Source: a virus (taxonomy: Duplodnaviria > Heunggongvirae > Uroviricota > Caudoviricetes). Taken from it: 33,680 bases of DNA. Position numbers and translations under genes: made by a program. The stretch is taken from positions 1-33,680 of IMG/VR virus record IMGVR_UViG_2526164670_000016. One strand, written 5' to 3'. Position 1 is the stretch's first letter, and each line of letters opens with the position of its first letter. Shown here piece after piece: positions 9,279 to 14,905 of this stretch. The notes beneath the pieces are model-generated. The model had not been told where the DNA came from. It saw nothing but the letters and a program-made list of their open reading frames with translations, and did no database searches.

Positions 9279-9607
9279 AGTTAACCTCTGTACTGACAGG
9301 GCCGAAATCGTAGGTTTCCGCCGTGATATACAACCTCGAAAGGGTTTCTTCGGTGATCACTATGGTTCCTGGGACCAGACGTTCGTCGCTTTCCACCAGT
9401 AAGGACAGTTGTGTCAGCACGTCACCGCGCATTGTCGGGCTACGTTCACCGATCAGGCGGGTGGTGATACCGCTTTCCAGAATGCTGTGAATAATGTCCT
9501 GGGTGATGCTGTCGCGGTTATCGCAACGGCGCGGCTCGTTGCCCGCTGTCCAGCGTGAAATCGCCGTCAGTGATCAAAAGGTCGATGTATAACGGTTCGG
9601 TACTCAT
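9271..9607 (-). pseudogene. Small baseplate protein gene (gp46/W-like, about 111 aa) interrupted by a 1-nt frameshift
   Basis: ATG at 9607 overlaps the tape-measure stop (ATGA); frame 0 reads MSTEPLYIDLLITDGDFTLDSGQRAAPLR then stops; the +1 frame continues NEPRRCDNRDSITQDIIHSILESGITTRLIGERSP...TEVNYD and ends in a TGA overlapping the J-like ATG. One extra base near the GGGC run (about 9540) explains it. The track shows no ORF of 60 aa or more here. Confidence 0.5.
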
Positions 9608-11718
9608 CCTGCGTTAAGCTCCTGCCATTCAGCCAACTGGGCCGGGGTGATTCCATTGGGGGCGTTGATGTAGGTATCGCCCCACGTTTTACGGTTATCA
9701 ACAGCGGTTTTGCTGTCGCTTTTAACTTGACTCATCAGGCCGCCGCGTGGGATGCCTGCATTAATTCGGTTCCCCGTCAGCACGGACGGGCTGTTCAGCT
9801 TCGATGAACCTGCAGCACTGTCAGGAATGACCGCATTTGCCGGAACGGCAGCCGCTGCCGATGGCGAAACGGTTTTCAGGTCGATGTTGACGCCGGGGAT
9901 CTTGTTTAACTTCTCAACAATCCAGTTATAGGTAGACGCAAAGGTATTTTTGAGGACGTCAAAAAGTTTGCTGAATACCCCGCCGATGGTTTGTGCGAAC
10001 CCTTCAAAGGTGGCAAGCGGGGAAAGACCGGCAAAGAAATCAACCACCACGGCCCAGCCGTCTGTGATGGACTGCCAGACCTGCGCAAACACCTGGCCTA
10101 CCTGTTCAGCGACCGACATCACCCAGGCAAAAGCCGACGTATCCATGATTGCTGCTGCCAGTTCTTCCCAGTGGGTGATGACGTACCAGACCCCCACGGC
10201 CAGAAGTGCCAGCCCGGCAACGATCAGGGTGATCGGACTCATCAGGAGTTGCATTGCCGCCCCGGCAAACATGGTCGCCGCACCGTAAACCCGCATGGCA
10301 ATGGCTCCGGCCTTTAACGCGATATTCCATGCAGCAAGCGCGATGCGGCAGACGCCAGTCCACAGCGCCAGTAATTTTGACTGGATCCACAATGCAGCCA
10401 GACCGATGCGCGTCGTCAGCAGGGACAGACGCAACAGGTTTAGCGTCCATAACAGGAGTTTCCATGCCCCGCCCAGCACTTTTGCAATTGCGGCCAGCCC
10501 TGTCATGGTGAAGCCAAAGCCCCCCATCACGATATTGACCGCCGCCCCGGCCAGCCCGAAGGACAACACGCCCAGGGTGATGTAACCCAGCCAGCGGGCA
10601 ATATTCGGGAACATATCCAGCCAGCGGGCAAATTTTGTCCCCACGTCGGCAATACGGTTCATCAGCGGCGACAGGATAGGGATCAGCGTGTTACCAATCG
10701 CCACACGAATGGCAAAGAATGTCGCTTTGATACGTTCCCACGGCTCGGCCATTCGTTCGGCCATTTCCTGGGCGCGTTTCATCCCGTCATTTCGGCCCAG
10801 TTCGGTAATGCTGCGATTTAATTTATCCTGCTGGCCGTACAGCTTTTTGATAACGTCAGCGCCGCCACCGAATGCGGCGTCCAGCGCCTGTTGTGCCTTG
10901 ACGTTCCCTTCAATGCTCTGCCCGTATTTGCTCTGGAGTTTTTGCAGAATGTCACCCATCGGCAGCATTTTGCCGGTGGCATCGACAAAGCTCATACCCA
11001 GCTTTTCAGCGGCAGCCGGGGCGCTGCGTAAAAACTGCTCGTAGATCCCGCTGGCCTCAGTACCCAGCGTGCGCGAAAGTGTCCCCAGGACGACGAACTG
11101 TTCATCCAGGCTGACGCCAAAGTCAGCACCGGCGCTTTTCGTCCCCTCGATAAGCTCCTGCATGGTCTGCATTTTCACGCCAAAGTTTTGCACCATGTAC
11201 GCCGTTTTCCCTGCCAGCTCTTCGGCAAAACGCACATGGCCCAGACTGGACAGCTCCGCGTTGAAGCGTGACGCCATCGCGCCGATGTATTCGCCTGCCT
11301 CTTCGCCGCTGGCCTTGACGCCTGCGGCCAGGGTATTGGCCGCGATGGTAACGCGGGGCAGGTCCAGATCGGACAGGCCCGCCATTGCGCCTTTCATCGC
11401 GTAGCTTGACCGGACCACATCAACGGCCCCTTTGCCGTAGCGCATACTGAATCGCATGGCTTCGCCGGACAGACGCTTCAGCGCGTCCTCTGCCACGCCT
11501 TTGGAACCCACTTCTGCAAGCGCGGCGTTCATCTCATACGCCGGACCCACCACGCCCGCGATGGACTGCGCCACGCCCCAGACAGCAGCCGCACCGATCC
11601 CGATTTTTGTAAAAGACGCCTGCGATTTTTCGGCAAAGCCGGACAGCGAAGACTGGGCCGTCTTTAATGGCCGCGTCAGCTTATCGATCAGGCTCAGGGT
11701 AAAATCCAGGTGGCTCAT
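9604..11718 (-). CDS. Tail tape measure protein, 704 aa
   Basis: Largest ORF in the tail module; Ala/Gly-rich with a long hydrophobic central segment; preceded by a frameshifting chaperone gene pair. Confidence 0.8.
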   Translation of the reverse strand: MSHLDFTLSLIDKLTRPLKTAQSSLSGFAEKSQASFTKIGIGAAAVWGVAQSIAGVVGPAYEMNAALAEVGSKGVAEDALKRLSGEAMRFSMRYGKGAVDVVRSSYAMKGAMAGLSDLDLPRVTIAANTLAAGVKASGEEAGEYIGAMASRFNAELSSLGHVRFAEELAGKTAYMVQNFGVKMQTMQELIEGTKSAGADFGVSLDEQFVVLGTLSRTLGTEASGIYEQFLRSAPAAAEKLGMSFVDATGKMLPMGDILQKLQSKYGQSIEGNVKAQQALDAAFGGGADVIKKLYGQQDKLNRSITELGRNDGMKRAQEMAERMAEPWERIKATFFAIRVAIGNTLIPILSPLMNRIADVGTKFARWLDMFPNIARWLGYITLGVLSFGLAGAAVNIVMGGFGFTMTGLAAIAKVLGGAWKLLLWTLNLLRLSLLTTRIGLAALWIQSKLLALWTGVCRIALAAWNIALKAGAIAMRVYGAATMFAGAAMQLLMSPITLIVAGLALLAVGVWYVITHWEELAAAIMDTSAFAWVMSVAEQVGQVFAQVWQSITDGWAVVVDFFAGLSPLATFEGFAQTIGGVFSKLFDVLKNTFASTYNWIVEKLNKIPGVNIDLKTVSPSAAAAVPANAVIPDSAAGSSKLNSPSVLTGNRINAGIPRGGLMSQVKSDSKTAVDNRKTWGDTYINAPNGITPAQLAEWQELNAG

Positions 11719-11719
11719 A

Positions 11720-11917
11720 TCAGTTTCCGTTAAATGCGATTGCTATCCCTTCCGCCGTCTTACTGGCGCGGGTCTGGGCGAAATATTCATCCAGCCACAG
11801 GGCGCGGGCGATGCTTTCTTCGTCGTCGTCTTCGTGCGGGAGGTAATAGCGGCGCAGGGCAAGGTATTGCTCAAGCACATTCTTGCGAATGGCCGCCACC
11901 CGCGCCGTCAGTTTTTT
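11720..11917 (-). other. E'-like extension frame reached by programmed -1 ribosomal frameshift at slippery heptamer A_AAA_AAC (minus strand, 11911-11917)
   Basis: The -1 frame is open for 64 codons (KKLTARVAAIRKNVLEQYLALRRYYLPHEDDDEESIARALWLDEYFAQTRASKTAEGIAIAFNGN) from the heptamer, placed just before the stop of the 89-aa ORF, to a TGA one nucleotide before the tape-measure ATG. Confidence 0.55.
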
Positions 11918-12177
11918 ACTTCGATCTCAAGTTTGGGGGAGTAAATCTCGTTCACCTTCTCGACGATCTGCATTTCGCAACCCGGATAATCTTCCATCAG
12001 CTTGTTGAGCGCCTCTTTACACTCGGCATCAACAATGCGGCCCAGATAAGTCACCATCGGGGCAACCTTATTGGTCATGGTCATTTCGTTAAGCAGGTTG
12101 TTAAACGCGGTTTTATTCGGCTCAAAGCTCAGATTTACGCCCGCCACGGTCATGGCGATTTTTTTCGATTTGCTCAT
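11908..12177 (-). CDS. Tail assembly chaperone (P2 gpE-like / lambda G-like), 89 aa
   Basis: Small ORF immediately upstream of the tape measure gene; ends ...EIEVKN with the slippery heptamer inside its last codons. Confidence 0.55.
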   Translation of the reverse strand: MSKSKKIAMTVAGVNLSFEPNKTAFNNLLNEMTMTNKVAPMVTYLGRIVDAECKEALNKLMEDYPGCEMQIVEKVNEIYSPKLEIEVKN

Positions 12178-12470
12178 TGTGCTAATTCCTTACGTTGTCG
12201 AATTATGCCCACCAGGGCGTTATGTCGGGCGGCGCAGTCGGTATACATCAGCCGGTAGGCTTTCAGCGCCGCGTCAAAGTCATTTCCGGTCGGTCCGGCC
12301 AGACGTGGCAGCGTGACCGGGCAAAGTGTCAGCTGGTTTTCCTGATAATTTTCGTTCGGCTTGATCTGCACTTTCGTTGAACAACCGGACGTAATCATCA
12401 GAAGCGCAAACGTTGCTAAAAACCGGCTTAATGGTTTCCGTGCGGATAACCCGTTCCGTGTGAATTTCAT
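12174..12470 (-). CDS. o-spanin (Rz1-like outer-membrane lipoprotein), up to 98 aa
   Basis: N-terminal signal-like segment with lipobox-like LMITSGC; overlaps the 3' half of the i-spanin gene in another frame; start uncertain. Confidence 0.5.
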   Translation of the reverse strand: MKFTRNGLSARKPLSRFLATFALLMITSGCSTKVQIKPNENYQENQLTLCPVTLPRLAGPTGNDFDAALKAYRLMYTDCAARHNALVGIIRQRKELAQ

Positions 12471-12663
12471 TGGCCCTCAGCTCCGCGAGTTTTGCTTCCA
12501 GCGCTTCACCAGACTGCTGTGTCACCTCAACAACAATCTGGCGCGTTTGTTCTGCCGCTTCACTGGCAGCGAGTTTCAGCTTTGCGTCGTGCCAGTCATG
12601 CGCCTGCCAGCCCGCTGACATCGCAGCGACGAGAATCAGCAAAAGACCCAGCAAATTGCGCAT
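12280..12663 (-). CDS. i-spanin (Rz-like inner-membrane protein), 127 aa
   Basis: N-terminal transmembrane helix (LLGLLLILVAAMSAGW) followed by a charged coiled-coil-like periplasmic domain; directly downstream of the endolysin gene. Confidence 0.55.
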   Translation of the reverse strand: MRNLLGLLLILVAAMSAGWQAHDWHDAKLKLAASEAAEQTRQIVVEVTQQSGEALEAKLAELRANEIHTERVIRTETIKPVFSNVCASDDYVRLFNESADQAERKLSGKPADTLPGHAATSGRTDRK

Positions 12664-13001
12664 CAGCGAACCCCGTTATGCTCAAGACTGAAATGGTTGC
12701 CGTCCGGCTTACTGAAACGTCCACCCCACGATCCGCCGATAGATTCCCAGTATTCGCCCAGGGGGCGGTATGCGGCGCTGTCGGCCTGGTATTCGCCGTT
12801 AATAAACAGGTTAAAATCCACCGCGAGGCGCTGGGTATGCAGGCTGTTAGCAATGCCACTCCCTTTTTTTGCGTTAAGCGCGGCCTGTTCCGGCGTGCGG
12901 TACGCTTCGCCAAACGTCAGGCGATAGCCCTTTTCTTCGGCAAAATGAATCAGGCTGGCGATCATCACCGTGAAAAGTTGCTGTTTTTCACTCAGTTTCA
13001 T
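12663..13001 (-). CDS. Endolysin, L-alanyl-D-glutamate peptidase-like (peptidase M15 family), 112 aa
   Basis: Small protein with Zn-binding-like motifs (SLHTQRLAVD, DGNHFS) typical of M15 phage endolysins; sits between holin and spanins. Confidence 0.65.
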   Translation of the reverse strand: MKLSEKQQLFTVMIASLIHFAEEKGYRLTFGEAYRTPEQAALNAKKGSGIANSLHTQRLAVDFNLFINGEYQADSAAYRPLGEYWESIGGSWGGRFSKPDGNHFSLEHNGVR

Positions 13002-13299
13002 TGCGCTTGCTCTCCCATCGCTTGATATACATATCCAGGCAGCGCTTTAACCCTGCCTCAATAAACGCGCTTCCCAGAATGCCCAGGGCGCAGGCCAGCC
13101 CAATGACGACCAGTTCCGGCATATCGGGGAATTTCAGCAGAGGGATTGCGGCCAGCGGTGCGACCGCAGATCCCAGAATCATCCGCCCGACCAGCAGGCG
13201 GGTTGTGATTCGCTCATTGCCGACCATCAGTTGCCCCAGGCCAATCACGGCCCCGATAAGCAACAGCTTTTCAAGCAGTGACGTTTCTCCGTTCATCAT
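12988..13299 (-). CDS. Holin, 103 aa
   Basis: Three predicted hydrophobic helices and a charged C-terminus (KRWESKRNETE); immediately upstream of the endolysin, overlapping by 14 nt. Confidence 0.6.
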   Translation of the reverse strand: MMNGETSLLEKLLLIGAVIGLGQLMVGNERITTRLLVGRMILGSAVAPLAAIPLLKFPDMPELVVIGLACALGILGSAFIEAGLKRCLDMYIKRWESKRNETE

Positions 13300-13303
13300 C
13301 GTG

Positions 13304-13759
13304 TCAGCCTTTCAAATCGCGAGTGTCGCGGGCTGACAGGTACGGCACGCCGTCAATCGCGACAAAGTCCGGGCTTGTCACCATGAATTTAATTTTCTTC
13401 GTGGTTTTGCTGGCCTCGTTGGGGTTGATGTTGACGATGTCGGACAGCGTCGGAACGCAGCCAAACACCTCGATTTTTTCTTCGTCGTCCCCGGCGTTGG
13501 CGTAGAACAAAAAGTCCTTTGCCGGAATGGATCGCCAGGAACCTGCGGCACGGGCCACGGCGGTAAACTTTTTAAAGTTCTGGGAGTCGACTTCGACTTC
13601 CACATCCGCCGAAACTGACCCTTTCGTGTGGCCGTTCGGGATGCCACGCGACTGCGCAACGGCGCTGTTATCCGTAATGGTGACGGTGGCGTTTTCGACG
13701 TGAATCATGATGCTGTCGTAGTTCACATCGAACGATCCACCGCTGATACGTTCAGTCAT
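13304..13759 (-). CDS. Putative tail tube protein, 151 aa
   Basis: Position directly downstream of the putative sheath gene; size fits tube proteins; no strong motif recognised. Confidence 0.45.
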   Translation of the reverse strand: MTERISGGSFDVNYDSIMIHVENATVTITDNSAVAQSRGIPNGHTKGSVSADVEVEVDSQNFKKFTAVARAAGSWRSIPAKDFLFYANAGDDEEKIEVFGCVPTLSDIVNINPNEASKTTKKIKFMVTSPDFVAIDGVPYLSARDTRDLKG

Positions 13760-13762
13760 TGA

Positions 13763-14905
13763 TTAGCTCTCCAGTGAGGTGTCCAGTTCGATGCTGACGC
13801 TGATTTCTTTCGCGCTCTCATACGGTCGAACCACAAGGTAAATCTGCACCGCTTCGCTACTGGTCCAGGTGATGGTGATGTCGCCGTCCTTTGGTGGCTT
13901 CACTTCGCCCGGAAATTCGACGCCATTGATCTGGGTTGAAATCGCCATTTCGCGCAGCGGCTTGCCGAAATAGGTTTCATGCGCGGCGATGCTGCCCGGT
14001 GTGCTGTTCAGTGAACGATCGGCAATTTTTGGGATTGCACGCAGACGGACGCGGCGGGAGGCTTTATCAACCACGCGCACGTTTTCAATCACCTGATAAT
14101 CACCGCCTTCAACGTCCAGGGTGCGACCGTCAGCCCAGTAGATGCCGTCATAATCGTGATACCACATCGGCACGCTGTAGCGGTTCGCCTGCAAGGACTG
14201 CAACACGGCCAGATCAATTTCGGCCCCCGTCCCGTCGACCGGCAGGCCGTCGCTCCCCAGCGCGGTGACTGCGCCGGTTGCGACGCGGGCGGGGCTGTCT
14301 GCCACCGTCACCGAACGGTTACACAGGCGACCGACCAGGACGCCGGGTTCGTTACCCCACAGACGCGGGACCAGTTGCACCCCAGGCGATGCAATACCGT
14401 CCTGGAGTGCTGCCAGACGCGTCACATAGTCGCTCCACGCTTCGTCCTTTTCCGGCCCACCCACAGCAAGGGCAAACCAGATAAAACGCCCAAAACTGGC
14501 CTGTAAGGTGACGCGCATTTCCGTTGCACGGTTGATGGTGGCCTTGTCGGTGGTATCAAAAGCCAGAAGGATCCCTTCCACGGATGCCACGCTCTGGGCC
14601 TGTTTGACCGCGCTCATCCAGTCTTCGTCTGGTTTATAGCCCTCGGCTTCCGTGTCCGGTTGTTCCAGTACGTGCACATAAGCAAACCAGTTCTGACCGG
14701 CGTTATTGGCCGCAGCGGCCACAATGCTTTTTAACAGGCTGTCTTTGTCGCCCAGGGCTTTATCCAGATCGCTGTCGGTATTCAGCGACTGGGTTTTCCC
14801 GATGTTAGTGTCGCCGTAACCCACAAAGAGGATGACGCGCTCGACGTCGTTCGTTGTGCCGTTGAAGCGGTTTTTCTGACTGACGTTGACTGTAGGCCAG
14901 GTCAT
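13763..14905 (-). CDS. Putative contractile tail sheath protein, 380 aa
   Basis: Position after the R/S-like tail completion genes and before the tube gene; size fits small sheath proteins; family not verified. Confidence 0.45.
   Translation of the reverse strand: MTWPTVNVSQKNRFNGTTNDVERVILFVGYGDTNIGKTQSLNTDSDLDKALGDKDSLLKSIVAAAANNAGQNWFAYVHVLEQPDTEAEGYKPDEDWMSAVKQAQSVASVEGILLAFDTTDKATINRATEMRVTLQASFGRFIWFALAVGGPEKDEAWSDYVTRLAALQDGIASPGVQLVPRLWGNEPGVLVGRLCNRSVTVADSPARVATGAVTALGSDGLPVDGTGAEIDLAVLQSLQANRYSVPMWYHDYDGIYWADGRTLDVEGGDYQVIENVRVVDKASRRVRLRAIPKIADRSLNSTPGSIAAHETYFGKPLREMAISTQINGVEFPGEVKPPKDGDITITWTSSEAVQIYLVVRPYESAKEISVSIELDTSLES

What the first reader, a model, noticed from the sequence alone, without database searches (positions are those of the whole stretch)
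11720..12177. Programmed -1 frameshift site (A_AAA_AAC) giving a chaperone fusion upstream of the tape measure gene
The 89-aa chaperone ORF ends with the slippery heptamer just before its stop. The -1 frame then stays open for 64 codons and ends one nucleotide before the tape-measure ATG, the classic G/GT or E/E+E' arrangement. The long antisense ORFs the track predicts on the plus strand here are most likely by-products of this.
Basis: partly seen in the sequence, partly recalled or inferred. Interest (0 to 1): 0.45.

Follow-up and report, generated by a model that had tools for sequence, protein, structure and literature searches.

The report
Tail chaperone frameshift site, confirmed
This is a real but ordinary phage feature: a slippery A_AAA_AAC at the very end of the small tail-assembly chaperone gene lets a fraction of ribosomes slip back one base and make a longer fusion protein just upstream of the tape-measure gene. 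Many tailed phages do this, but public records do not annotate it for this phage group.

Summary
On the minus strand, an 89-aa ORF (12177..11908) ends ...GTA AAA AAC TGA. The heptamer A_AAA_AAC (11917..11911) is in the X_XXY_YYZ phase and abuts the stop. The -1 frame is open only from 11926, runs 63 sense codons to TGA 11722..11720, and the tape-measure ATG is at 11718.

- The ORF belongs to Pfam Phage_TAC_10 (E 1e-30), and its predicted fold matches tail assembly chaperones.
- The -1 extension matches Pfam DUF6890 (E 2e-21).
- In 174 unique related loci, down to about 33% identity and including HP1 and K139, A_AAA_AA[C/A] followed directly by a stop is invariant.
- The -1 frame shows third-position variation typical of coding sequence.
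- The peptide is conserved from the slip site onward, and no start codon is conserved.

I found no conserved downstream RNA structure and no upstream Shine-Dalgarno-like stimulator.

It is an analogue of lambda G/GT and P2 E/E+E', but not a sequence homologue of P2 E. No inspected public record annotates the fusion; the -1 ORF is called as a separate small gene or left out.

The plus-strand antisense ORFs are not conserved and are spurious. They are not a by-product of the frameshift.

Verdict: a new, unannotated member of a known kind. Modest interest.

The parts
11908..12177 (-). Tail assembly chaperone gene (short product, 89 aa; analogue of lambda gpG and P2 gpE)
   Evidence: Pfam PF10963 Phage_TAC_10, E 1.2e-30, full-length match. 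phrog_1214. AlphaFold model with pLDDT 82; the top named BFVD hits are tail assembly chaperones, and PDB 3fgx matches at TM 0.76. It lies directly upstream of the tape-measure gene.
11911..11917 (-). Slippery heptamer A_AAA_AAC in X_XXY_YYZ phase; it covers the last two sense codons of the chaperone gene
   Evidence: Sequence. TAAAAAACT is invariant in 80 unique homologous regions, while flanking wobble positions have entropy of about 1. It reads A_AAA_AAC in 128 and A_AAA_AAA in 46 of 174 unique loci.
11908..11910 (-). 0-frame stop codon (TGA), flush with the heptamer
   Evidence: A stop (TGA, TAA or TAG) follows the heptamer directly in 174 of 174 unique loci. The overlapping -1-frame codon is only ever CTA, CTG or ATA, never a synonymous codon that would destroy the stop.
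11911..11926 (-). Overlap window in which a -1 shift can join the two frames
   Evidence: A -1-frame stop at 11929..11927 and the 0-frame stop at 11910..11908 bound it.
11720..11911 (-). -1-frame extension: 63 sense codons plus TGA; the C-terminal domain of the 152-aa fusion (analogue of lambda T and P2 E')
   Evidence: Pfam PF21830 DUF6890, E 2e-21. phrog_7050, E 1e-25. Entropy by codon position is 0.66/0.50/1.28. Residues are conserved from the first codon after the shift, and no start codon is conserved.
9604..11718 (-). Tape measure protein gene (704 aa); its ATG lies 1 nt after the stop of the -1 frame
   Evidence: Pfam PF10145, E 9e-18. phrog_28 tail length tape measure protein. TIGR01760.
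11850..11907 (-). Candidate long-range stem (11907..11899 pairs with 11858..11850) enclosing two small hairpins; NOT supported as a conserved stimulator
   Evidence: Window minimum free energy is -27.6 kcal/mol, z = -1.78. Only 70.5% of cells are paired across 42 homologues, with weak covariation. RNAalifold predicts no consensus pairs.
12174..13299 (-). Context: a lysis cassette (holin 12988..13299, M15 endolysin 12663..13001, i-spanin 12280..12663, probable o-spanin 12174..12470) lies between the tube gene and the chaperone gene
   Evidence: Pfam hits. HP1 has the same order.
13304..14905 (-). Context: tail tube (13304..13759, Phage_HP1_Orf24) and tail sheath (13763..14905, DUF2586)
   Evidence: Pfam E 2e-51 and 2e-132. 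Annotated as tail sheath and tail protein in phage SI7.

Best explanation
This is a programmed -1 ribosomal frameshift site of a tail assembly chaperone gene in an HP1-like (Peduoviridae) prophage.

Most ribosomes translate the 89-aa chaperone and terminate at TGA 11910..11908. A minority slip one base back on A_AAA_AAC. They either slip with tRNA-Lys and tRNA-Asn in the P and A sites, or slip with peptidyl-tRNA-Asn in the P site while the adjacent stop codon waits in the A site. They then read CTG and 62 further codons in the -1 frame. The product is a 152-aa protein made of the whole chaperone plus a C-terminal DUF6890 domain, and it ends 1 nt before the tape-measure start.

By analogy with lambda G/GT and P2 E/E+E' (inferred, not shown here):
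- both products bind the tape-measure protein through the shared N-terminal part;
- the extension of the rare long form recruits the tube protein;
- the low slip rate sets the ratio between the two forms.

Shown: the anatomy, the family membership, the coding status of the -1 frame, and conservation of the signal. Inferred: that the shift happens on the ribosome, its efficiency, and the role of the fusion.
For: - Anatomy.
- The N-terminal part is PF10963 Phage_TAC_10 (E 1e-30) and the -1 part is PF21830 DUF6890 (E 2e-21).
- The heptamer plus T is invariant in 80 unique homologues. This includes three synonymous positions: the wobble base of the preceding Val/Ile/Leu codon, and the third bases of AAA and AAC. 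Neighbouring wobble sites vary.
- In a wider set of 174 unique loci, the heptamer is A_AAA_AAC or A_AAA_AAA and is always followed directly by a stop, with the extension in the -1 frame.
- HP1, K139, Vibrio and Pseudoalteromonas phages have the same arrangement.
- The -1 frame shows a 3-periodic substitution pattern.
- Conserved residues begin at the first post-shift codon. The only early start-capable column has GTG or TTG in 35 of 80 unique sequences and 40 of 174.
- All 67 phage records encode the two halves in two frames; none has them fused or far apart.
- Gene callers give the -1 ORF arbitrary lengths of 45-63 aa and mostly miss it: one cluster is on 2 contigs, against 869 contigs for the chaperone cluster.
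- A_AAA_AAC is a documented bacterial -1 shift site of low efficiency, and a proven IS-element case uses it without an established stimulator (PMC4066793).
- The G/GT-type frameshift is widely conserved in long-tailed phages, and downstream hairpins are usually absent (PMC5009743; PMC3091744).
Against: - No experimental detection of the fusion exists for this phage group, as far as the searchable literature shows.
- A_AAA_AAC is inefficient in E. coli (PMC4066793), and I found no conserved stimulatory RNA structure or SD-like element. The efficiency may therefore be only a fraction of a percent to a few percent.
- Sequence alone cannot separate ribosomal slippage from RNA polymerase slippage on the A6/A7 run.
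- One homologue (L131) carries the extension in the 0 frame behind the stop. It does not fit the model and is most simply a mutation or a sequencing error.
Confidence: 0.88

Rival explanations
1. The -1 ORF is an independent small gene (the 59-aa 'hypothetical protein' of phage SI7, or the 45-aa 'DUF6890 family protein' of PGAP). It would be translated from its own start codon (GTG 11899), or by termination-reinitiation after the chaperone stop. No fusion would be made.
For: This is how public records annotate it. In the window a GTG lies 9 nt after the chaperone stop.
Against: - The GTG/TTG column is start-capable in only 35 of 80 unique homologues and 40 of 174. The others carry GTC, GTT, GTA, TTA, CTG or GCC.
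- Invariant residues (L2, R5, A8/I9, N12) lie upstream of, or around, every candidate start.
- There is no SD-like motif before the GTG.
- Annotated starts differ from record to record, giving lengths of 45-63 aa.
- This model does not explain why synonymous positions of the heptamer are invariant.
Confidence: 0.04
2. The same fusion is made, but by transcriptional slippage. RNA polymerase would add one A in the A6 run (A7 in some relatives), and ribosomes would translate the edited mRNA normally.
For: The site is a homopolymeric A run, and inserting one A gives the same reading frame as a -1 ribosomal shift. Some relatives have A7. Sequence conservation cannot separate the two mechanisms.
Against: - Efficient slippage by bacterial RNA polymerase is documented on runs of about 9 A or T (PMC5009743). 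No homologue among 174 has a run longer than 7.
- The motif is always in the exact X_XXY_YYZ phase.
- The A_AAA_AAC IS cluster listed in PMC4066793 as proven frameshifting was analysed as ribosomal -1 frameshifting.
- The characterised chaperone cases (lambda G/GT, P2 E/E+E') are described as translational frameshifts.
Confidence: 0.06
3. It is a chance juxtaposition: a common A-rich heptamer that happens to lie before an accidentally open frame in a short intergenic gap, with no recoding.
For: AAAAAAC is not over-represented in the window (14 found, 11.2 expected). Open alternative frames are common in GC-rich DNA.
Against: - The -1 frame matches a curated Pfam family at E 2e-21.
- It evolves as coding sequence.
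- The heptamer, the stop and the -1 ORF are conserved from Enterobacteriaceae to Pasteurellaceae and Vibrionaceae phages at about 33-42% protein identity.
Confidence: 0.01

Closest known systems
Phage P2 E / E+E' (-1 frameshift at T_TTT_TTG in the FETUD tail operon)
   Same: - Same virus family (Peduoviridae) and same position directly upstream of the tape-measure gene T.
- Similar sizes: 91 and 142 aa in P2 against 89 and 152 aa here.
- Also a -1 shift near the end of the short ORF, and no downstream hairpin.
   Different: - No detectable sequence homology. P2 is PF10109 + PF06528; this one is PF10963 + PF21830; hhalign probability is 0.1%.
- Different heptamer: T_TTT_TTG against A_AAA_AAC.
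- In P2 the site lies 6 codons before the E stop. Here it is flush with the stop, so the fusion contains the whole short protein.
- Here a lysis cassette separates the tube gene from the chaperone gene.
Phage lambda G / G-T (-1 frameshift at G_GGA_AAG)
   Same: Two chaperone products come from one start. The long form is made by a rare -1 shift. The genes lie between the major tail gene and the tape-measure gene. The G:GT ratio of about 30:1 is needed for tail assembly, and neither product is in the virion (PMC5009743).
   Different: - Lambda is a siphovirus with a different protein family and a different heptamer.
- The function of the extension (binding the tail tube protein) is shown for lambda and only inferred here.
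Haemophilus phage HP1 orf26 and the unannotated gap before orf27 (also K139 orf30, HP2 orf26, F108, phiO18P)
   Same: True homologues. HP1 orf26 scores 133 bits on PF10963. It ends GTA AAA AAC TAA and is followed by a 62-codon -1 frame (counted from the first base of the heptamer) that matches DUF6890. The gene order is also the same: sheath, tube, holin, lysin, spanin, chaperone, tape measure.
   Different: About 42% identity. The -1 ORF is not annotated at all in the HP1, K139 or Yersinia phage 324 records. I could not check whether Xu, Hendrix and Duda (2004) already listed HP1, because that paper is not in the library.
A_AAA_AAC frameshift of bacterial IS elements (cluster A_AAA_AAC_1 in PMC4066793; IS1 insA-insB from my own knowledge)
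   Same: The same heptamer. It has low efficiency in E. coli, is a proven case of programmed frameshifting, and has no established stimulator (PMC4066793).
   Different: A transposase, not a phage chaperone. The identification of that cluster with IS1, and the distance from its heptamer to the 0-frame stop, rest on memory and were not checked here.

Membership tests
G/GT-type programmed -1 frameshift of tail assembly chaperones (lambda G/GT, P2 E/E+E') | Two overlapping ORFs lie between the major tail (tube) gene and the tape-measure gene, directly upstream of the latter | tested here: met
   The chaperone is at 12177..11908, the -1 ORF runs to 11720, and the tape-measure ATG is at 11718. The tube gene is at 13304..13759. 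A lysis cassette lies in between, as in HP1.
G/GT-type programmed -1 frameshift of tail assembly chaperones (lambda G/GT, P2 E/E+E') | [quoted passage not shown] | tested here: met
   A_AAA_AAC at 11917..11911 is the only slippery motif in the 16-nt overlap window 11926..11911.
G/GT-type programmed -1 frameshift of tail assembly chaperones (lambda G/GT, P2 E/E+E') | The downstream frame is protein-coding but has no start signal of its own | tested here: met
   Pfam DUF6890, E 2e-21. Codon-position entropy is 0.66/0.50/1.28. No start codon is conserved, and there is no SD-like motif.
G/GT-type programmed -1 frameshift of tail assembly chaperones (lambda G/GT, P2 E/E+E') | The slippery site and the frame arrangement are conserved among divergent relatives | tested here: met
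   175 of 177 unique loci are canonical. The exceptions are L131 (extension in the 0 frame) and L160 (the chaperone gene itself is broken).
G/GT-type programmed -1 frameshift of tail assembly chaperones (lambda G/GT, P2 E/E+E') | Both the short product and the frameshifted fusion are detected, at a fixed low ratio | not testable with these tools
   This needs protein analysis. I found no proteomic or reporter data for this group in the searchable literature.
G/GT-type programmed -1 frameshift of tail assembly chaperones (lambda G/GT, P2 E/E+E') | Both products are required for tail assembly and are absent from virions | not testable with these tools
   This needs genetics.
Pfam PF10963 (Phage_TAC_10) and PF21830 (DUF6890) | The score exceeds the curated gathering threshold over the full profile | tested here: met
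   105.9 bits against a 25.7 cut-off, profile positions 1-82 of 82. 75.9 bits against a 23.6 cut-off, profile positions 1-44 of 44.
P2 gpE / gpE+E' protein family (PF10109 Phage_TAC_7 and PF06528 Phage_P2_GpE) | Sequence homology to P2 E and E' | tested here: not met
   The window proteins do not hit these Pfam families. P2 E+E' hits them and not PF10963 or PF21830. Profile-to-sequence hhalign probability is 0.1%.
Stimulated bacterial -1 frameshift sites of the dnaX / IS3 / IS911 type | A conserved downstream stem-loop or pseudoknot 5-9 nt after the heptamer | tested here: not met
   RNAalifold gives 0 pairs on 42 homologues. Two candidate structures do no better, or barely better, than controls. 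The mean z-score of the 75 nt downstream is -1.0, and is positive in the Yersinia clade.
Stimulated bacterial -1 frameshift sites of the dnaX / IS3 / IS911 type | A conserved internal Shine-Dalgarno-like sequence upstream of the heptamer | tested here: not met
   GGAG occurs 4-17 nt upstream in 2 of 174 unique loci, and no other SD-like motif occurs in more than 7.

The most novel reading that the evidence does not exclude
The 0-frame stop codon flush with the heptamer is kept in all 174 unique loci, at the cost of using the rare codons CTA and ATA in the -1 frame. It may itself be the stimulator. In this 'shifty stop' model, peptidyl-tRNA-Asn slips back while the release factor is slow to act on the stop. 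The chaperone-to-fusion ratio of all HP1-like phages would then depend on termination efficiency rather than on an RNA structure. As a corollary, DUF6890 would be a previously unrecognised tube-recruiting domain that is never translated on its own.
Probability: 0.3. Interest if true: 0.4.

Novelty: new member of a known kind. Interest (0 to 1): 0.27.

Why it matters
- Annotation. In this group of HP1-like or ESSI-2-like prophages of Salmonella, E. coli, Enterobacter, Yersinia, Vibrio, Haemophilus and others, the long chaperone form is missing from every record I inspected. Its C-terminal half is filed as an orphan 'DUF6890 family protein' with arbitrary start codons, or is not called at all. 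Recognising DUF6890 as the frameshift extension of Phage_TAC_10 chaperones gives a function to a domain of unknown function and corrects hundreds of gene models.
- Mechanism. It adds a well-conserved natural example of A_AAA_AAC (or A_AAA_AAA) abutting a stop codon, working in bacteria without a recognisable stimulator.
- It does not change what is known about phage tail assembly.

Tried and rejected
- Downstream stimulatory structure. I tried single-sequence folds, RNAalifold on 63 and then 42 homologues, pair counting for the window-derived three-way junction and for a hairpin seen in one clade, and z-scores across homologues. There is no family-wide structure. A weak hint of a stem in the GC-rich enteric clade is not convincing.
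- Upstream SD-like stimulator: absent.
- Homology to P2 E+E': none.
- Natural in-frame fusions as 'Rosetta stone' evidence. I found none among 64 chaperone hits, 22 DUF6890 hits or 67 phage records.
Only the 89-aa part was modelled.
- PDB sequence search with the chaperone profile found nothing.
- Literature. There are no papers on DUF6890 or Phage_TAC_10. Christie et al. 2002 (PMC135442) is not held, and I did not look up Xu et al. 2004 directly. I therefore could not establish whether the HP1 site has been listed before.
- The plus-strand antisense ORFs are rejected as genes.

Full report
**1. The observation**

All genes in this part of the window are on the minus strand. The 89-aa ORF 12177..11908 ends ...GAG ATC GAA GTA AAA AAC TGA.

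- The heptamer A_AAA_AAC occupies 11917..11911 in the canonical X_XXY_YYZ phase.
- The 0-frame stop TGA (11910..11908) follows it with no spacer.
- The -1 frame has a stop at 11929..11927 and is open from 11926. After the heptamer it reads CTG and 62 more sense codons, then ends at TGA 11722..11720.
- One base later, at 11718, the 704-aa tape-measure ORF begins.

The two frames can be joined only within 16 nt (11926..11911), and the heptamer is the only slippery motif there.

The motif on its own is not remarkable. AAAAAAC occurs 14 times in the window against 11.2 expected.

**2. What the two reading frames encode**

- The 89-aa protein is a full-length member of Pfam Phage_TAC_10 (PF10963, E 1.2e-30).
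- The -1 extension is a full-length match to Pfam DUF6890 (PF21830, E 2e-21). It also matches phrog_7050.
- The downstream ORF is a tape-measure protein (PF10145, phrog_28, TIGR01760).
- Upstream lie an o-spanin candidate, an i-spanin, an M15 endolysin, a holin, an HP1-Orf24-type tube protein and a DUF2586 sheath protein.
- An AlphaFold model of the 89-aa protein (pLDDT 82) has one significant PDB neighbour: 3fgx, an uncharacterised Bacillus protein, at TM 0.76. Among viral models, nearly every named top hit is a 'tail assembly chaperone' of actinophages, with TM 0.6-0.7.

**3. Where the window comes from**

The region is 96% identical to Salmonella phages SI7, SW3 and SW5 (Peduoviridae, Irrigatiovirus) and 97% identical to prophages in 18 complete E. 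coli genomes.

No inspected record annotates a frameshift:
- SI7 lists a separate 59-aa 'hypothetical protein' that starts at the GTG.
- PGAP lists a 45-aa 'DUF6890 family protein'.
- The Yersinia phage 324, HP1, K139, PY3 and 1.202.O records leave the stretch empty.
- The yong1 record calls a 47-aa 'tail assembly chaperone'.

By contrast, the P2 record carries the joined E+E' CDS.

**4. Comparative test**

I fetched 93 related loci, 50-100% identical to the window chaperone, and later extended the set to 262 loci.

*The heptamer.* In 80 unique versions of the region, the nine bases TAAAAAACT are invariant, while the wobble positions on either side have entropy of about 1 bit. The invariant bases include the third base of the preceding codon, which is always A although the amino acid varies (GTA, ATA, TTA, CTA). 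They also include the third bases of AAA and AAC. That is constraint on the nucleotides, not on the protein.

*The -1 frame.*
- It is open for 65-66 codons, counted from the first base of the heptamer, in every locus.
- Its substitution pattern is 3-periodic, with entropy 0.66/0.50/1.28 for codon positions 1, 2 and 3.
- Its peptide is conserved from the very first post-shift codon: L2, R5, A8, I9, N12, Q16 and so on.

*Start codons.* No start codon is conserved. The GTG used in the SI7 annotation is GTG or TTG in 35 of 80 unique sequences and in 40 of 174 in the wider set, where the others read GTC, GTT, GTA, TTA, CTG or GCC.

*The wider set of 177 unique loci.*
- 175 have A_AAA_AAC or A_AAA_AAA followed at once by a stop, with the extension in the -1 frame. 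re-counted the 174 of these with a full-length flank: 128 A_AAA_AAC and 46 A_AAA_AAA.
- L160 has a broken chaperone gene, but the local arrangement is the same.
- L131 has the extension in the 0 frame behind the stop. This is probably a 1-nt mutation or sequencing error.

*Distant relatives.* HP1 (GTA AAA AAC TAA), K139 (CTA AAA AAC TAA) and the marine Vibrio and Pseudoalteromonas phages (GTA AAA AAA TAG) all conform. All 67 phage records with a homologue encode the halves in two frames, and none has them fused.

*Gene calling.* Protein databases hold the extension only as orphan ORFs of 45-63 aa. One chaperone cluster is seen on 869 contigs and one extension cluster on 2, so gene callers usually miss it.

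**5. Stimulators**

- RNAalifold finds no consensus structure downstream in 42 or 63 homologues.
- The best fold of the window sequence is -27.6 kcal/mol, z = -1.78. Only 70.5% of its pairs are kept across homologues, with weak covariation.
- A hairpin that is perfect in one clade does no better than shuffles across the family.
- Downstream folding z-scores average -1.0 and are positive in the Yersinia clade.
- There is no SD-like motif 4-17 nt upstream.

This matches what is reported for P2 and most tail chaperone frameshifts (PMC3091744). It also matches the proven A_AAA_AAC IS cluster listed by Sharma et al. 2014, which has no established stimulator.

That paper classes A_AAA_AAC as a low-efficiency heptamer in E. 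coli that is nevertheless used for programmed frameshifting. A low rate is what a chaperone ratio of the lambda type (about 30:1; PMC5009743) requires.

The one conserved context feature is the stop codon flush with the heptamer. The -1-frame codon that overlaps it is always CTA, CTG or ATA, never a synonymous codon that would remove the stop. This may simply protect the C-terminus of the short protein. It may also act as a 'shifty stop' (a concept cited in PMC5009743). I cannot decide between these.

**6. Mechanism and rivals**

Best explanation (confidence about 0.88): a ribosomal -1 shift on A_AAA_AAC yields a 152-aa fusion that contains the entire chaperone plus DUF6890. By analogy with lambda and P2, it would work with the short form on the tape-measure protein and recruit the tube protein.

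Rivals:
- Independent initiation of the small ORF. This is contradicted by the lack of a conserved start and by the invariant synonymous sites.
- Transcriptional slippage on A6/A7. It gives the same product and is not excluded by sequence, but the runs are shorter than the roughly 9 known to slip efficiently.
- Chance. This is refuted by conservation.

**7. Comparison with known systems**

- Functionally and architecturally this is the G/GT or E/E+E' arrangement.
- It is not a sequence relative of P2 E/E'. P2 is PF10109 + PF06528 and this one is PF10963 + PF21830; hhalign finds nothing.
- It is a true homologue of HP1 orf26 and the unannotated frame behind it.
- It differs from P2 and lambda in the heptamer, in the heptamer being the last two sense codons, and in the lysis cassette between tube and chaperone genes.

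**8. The antisense ORFs**

The plus-strand ORFs 11456..11944 and 11734..12258 have no Pfam match. They are interrupted by stops in relatives that are 91-98% identical. They are not genes, but they are a general by-product of GC-rich coding DNA on the other strand, not of the frameshift.

**9. Verdict**

- The finding is real and correctly interpreted.
- It is an unannotated member of a well-known class of recoding sites.
- Its practical value is annotation (DUF6890 is the frameshift extension of Phage_TAC_10 chaperones), plus a clean natural example of a heptamer abutting a stop without a recognisable stimulator.
- Interest is modest.

Noticed in passing
window 12174..12470 (-): A 98-aa ORF with a lipoprotein signal (LLMITSGC) and a weak Rz1/LysC Pfam hit (E 0.023). 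It overlaps the i-spanin gene 12280..12663 out of frame, and its TGA overlaps the chaperone ATG (ATGA). It is a probable o-spanin. It is not annotated in the SI7 RefSeq record or the E. coli PGAP records, but it is annotated in Yersinia phage 324.
   Followed up: partly
window 12174..13299 (-): The whole lysis cassette (holin, M15 endolysin, spanins) sits inside the tail operon, between the tube gene and the chaperone gene, exactly as in HP1.
   Followed up: partly
L131 1501..1932 (IMGVR_UViG_2551306561_000001): The only homologue in which the DUF6890 part lies in the 0 frame directly behind the TGA, because of a 1-nt difference about 10 nt after the heptamer. The -1 frame there encodes an unrelated peptide. 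It could be a mutation, a sequencing error, or a switch to stop-codon readthrough.
   Followed up: no
L160 1498..1923 (IMGVR_UViG_2775507053_000001): The chaperone gene itself is interrupted by a frameshift in an internal A-rich stretch. The heptamer, the stop and the -1 ORF are intact.
   Followed up: no
L102 83..661 (Vibrio phage K139 orf30): The annotated 192-aa ORF starts with an Rz1-like lipoprotein signal (LLLSGCANRT) and runs without a stop into the chaperone. Either the o-spanin and the chaperone share one frame there, or the start is mis-annotated.
   Followed up: no
window 11901..11903 (-) and the homologous column in related loci: The Arg codon three codons after the heptamer is almost always CGG, even in AT-rich relatives: first two bases invariant, third-base entropy 0.59. 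From my own knowledge, CGG is a rare codon in enterobacteria. It could be part of a weak pairing with the later CGC CGC codons, or a slow-decoding site. I did not resolve this.
   Followed up: partly
protein clusters P0001 and P0065-P0086: One chaperone cluster (P0001) was seen on 869 contigs, but the most similar cluster for the adjacent -1 ORF (P0065) on only 2. Called lengths range from 45 to 63 aa, which shows that gene finders handle this ORF inconsistently.
   Followed up: yes
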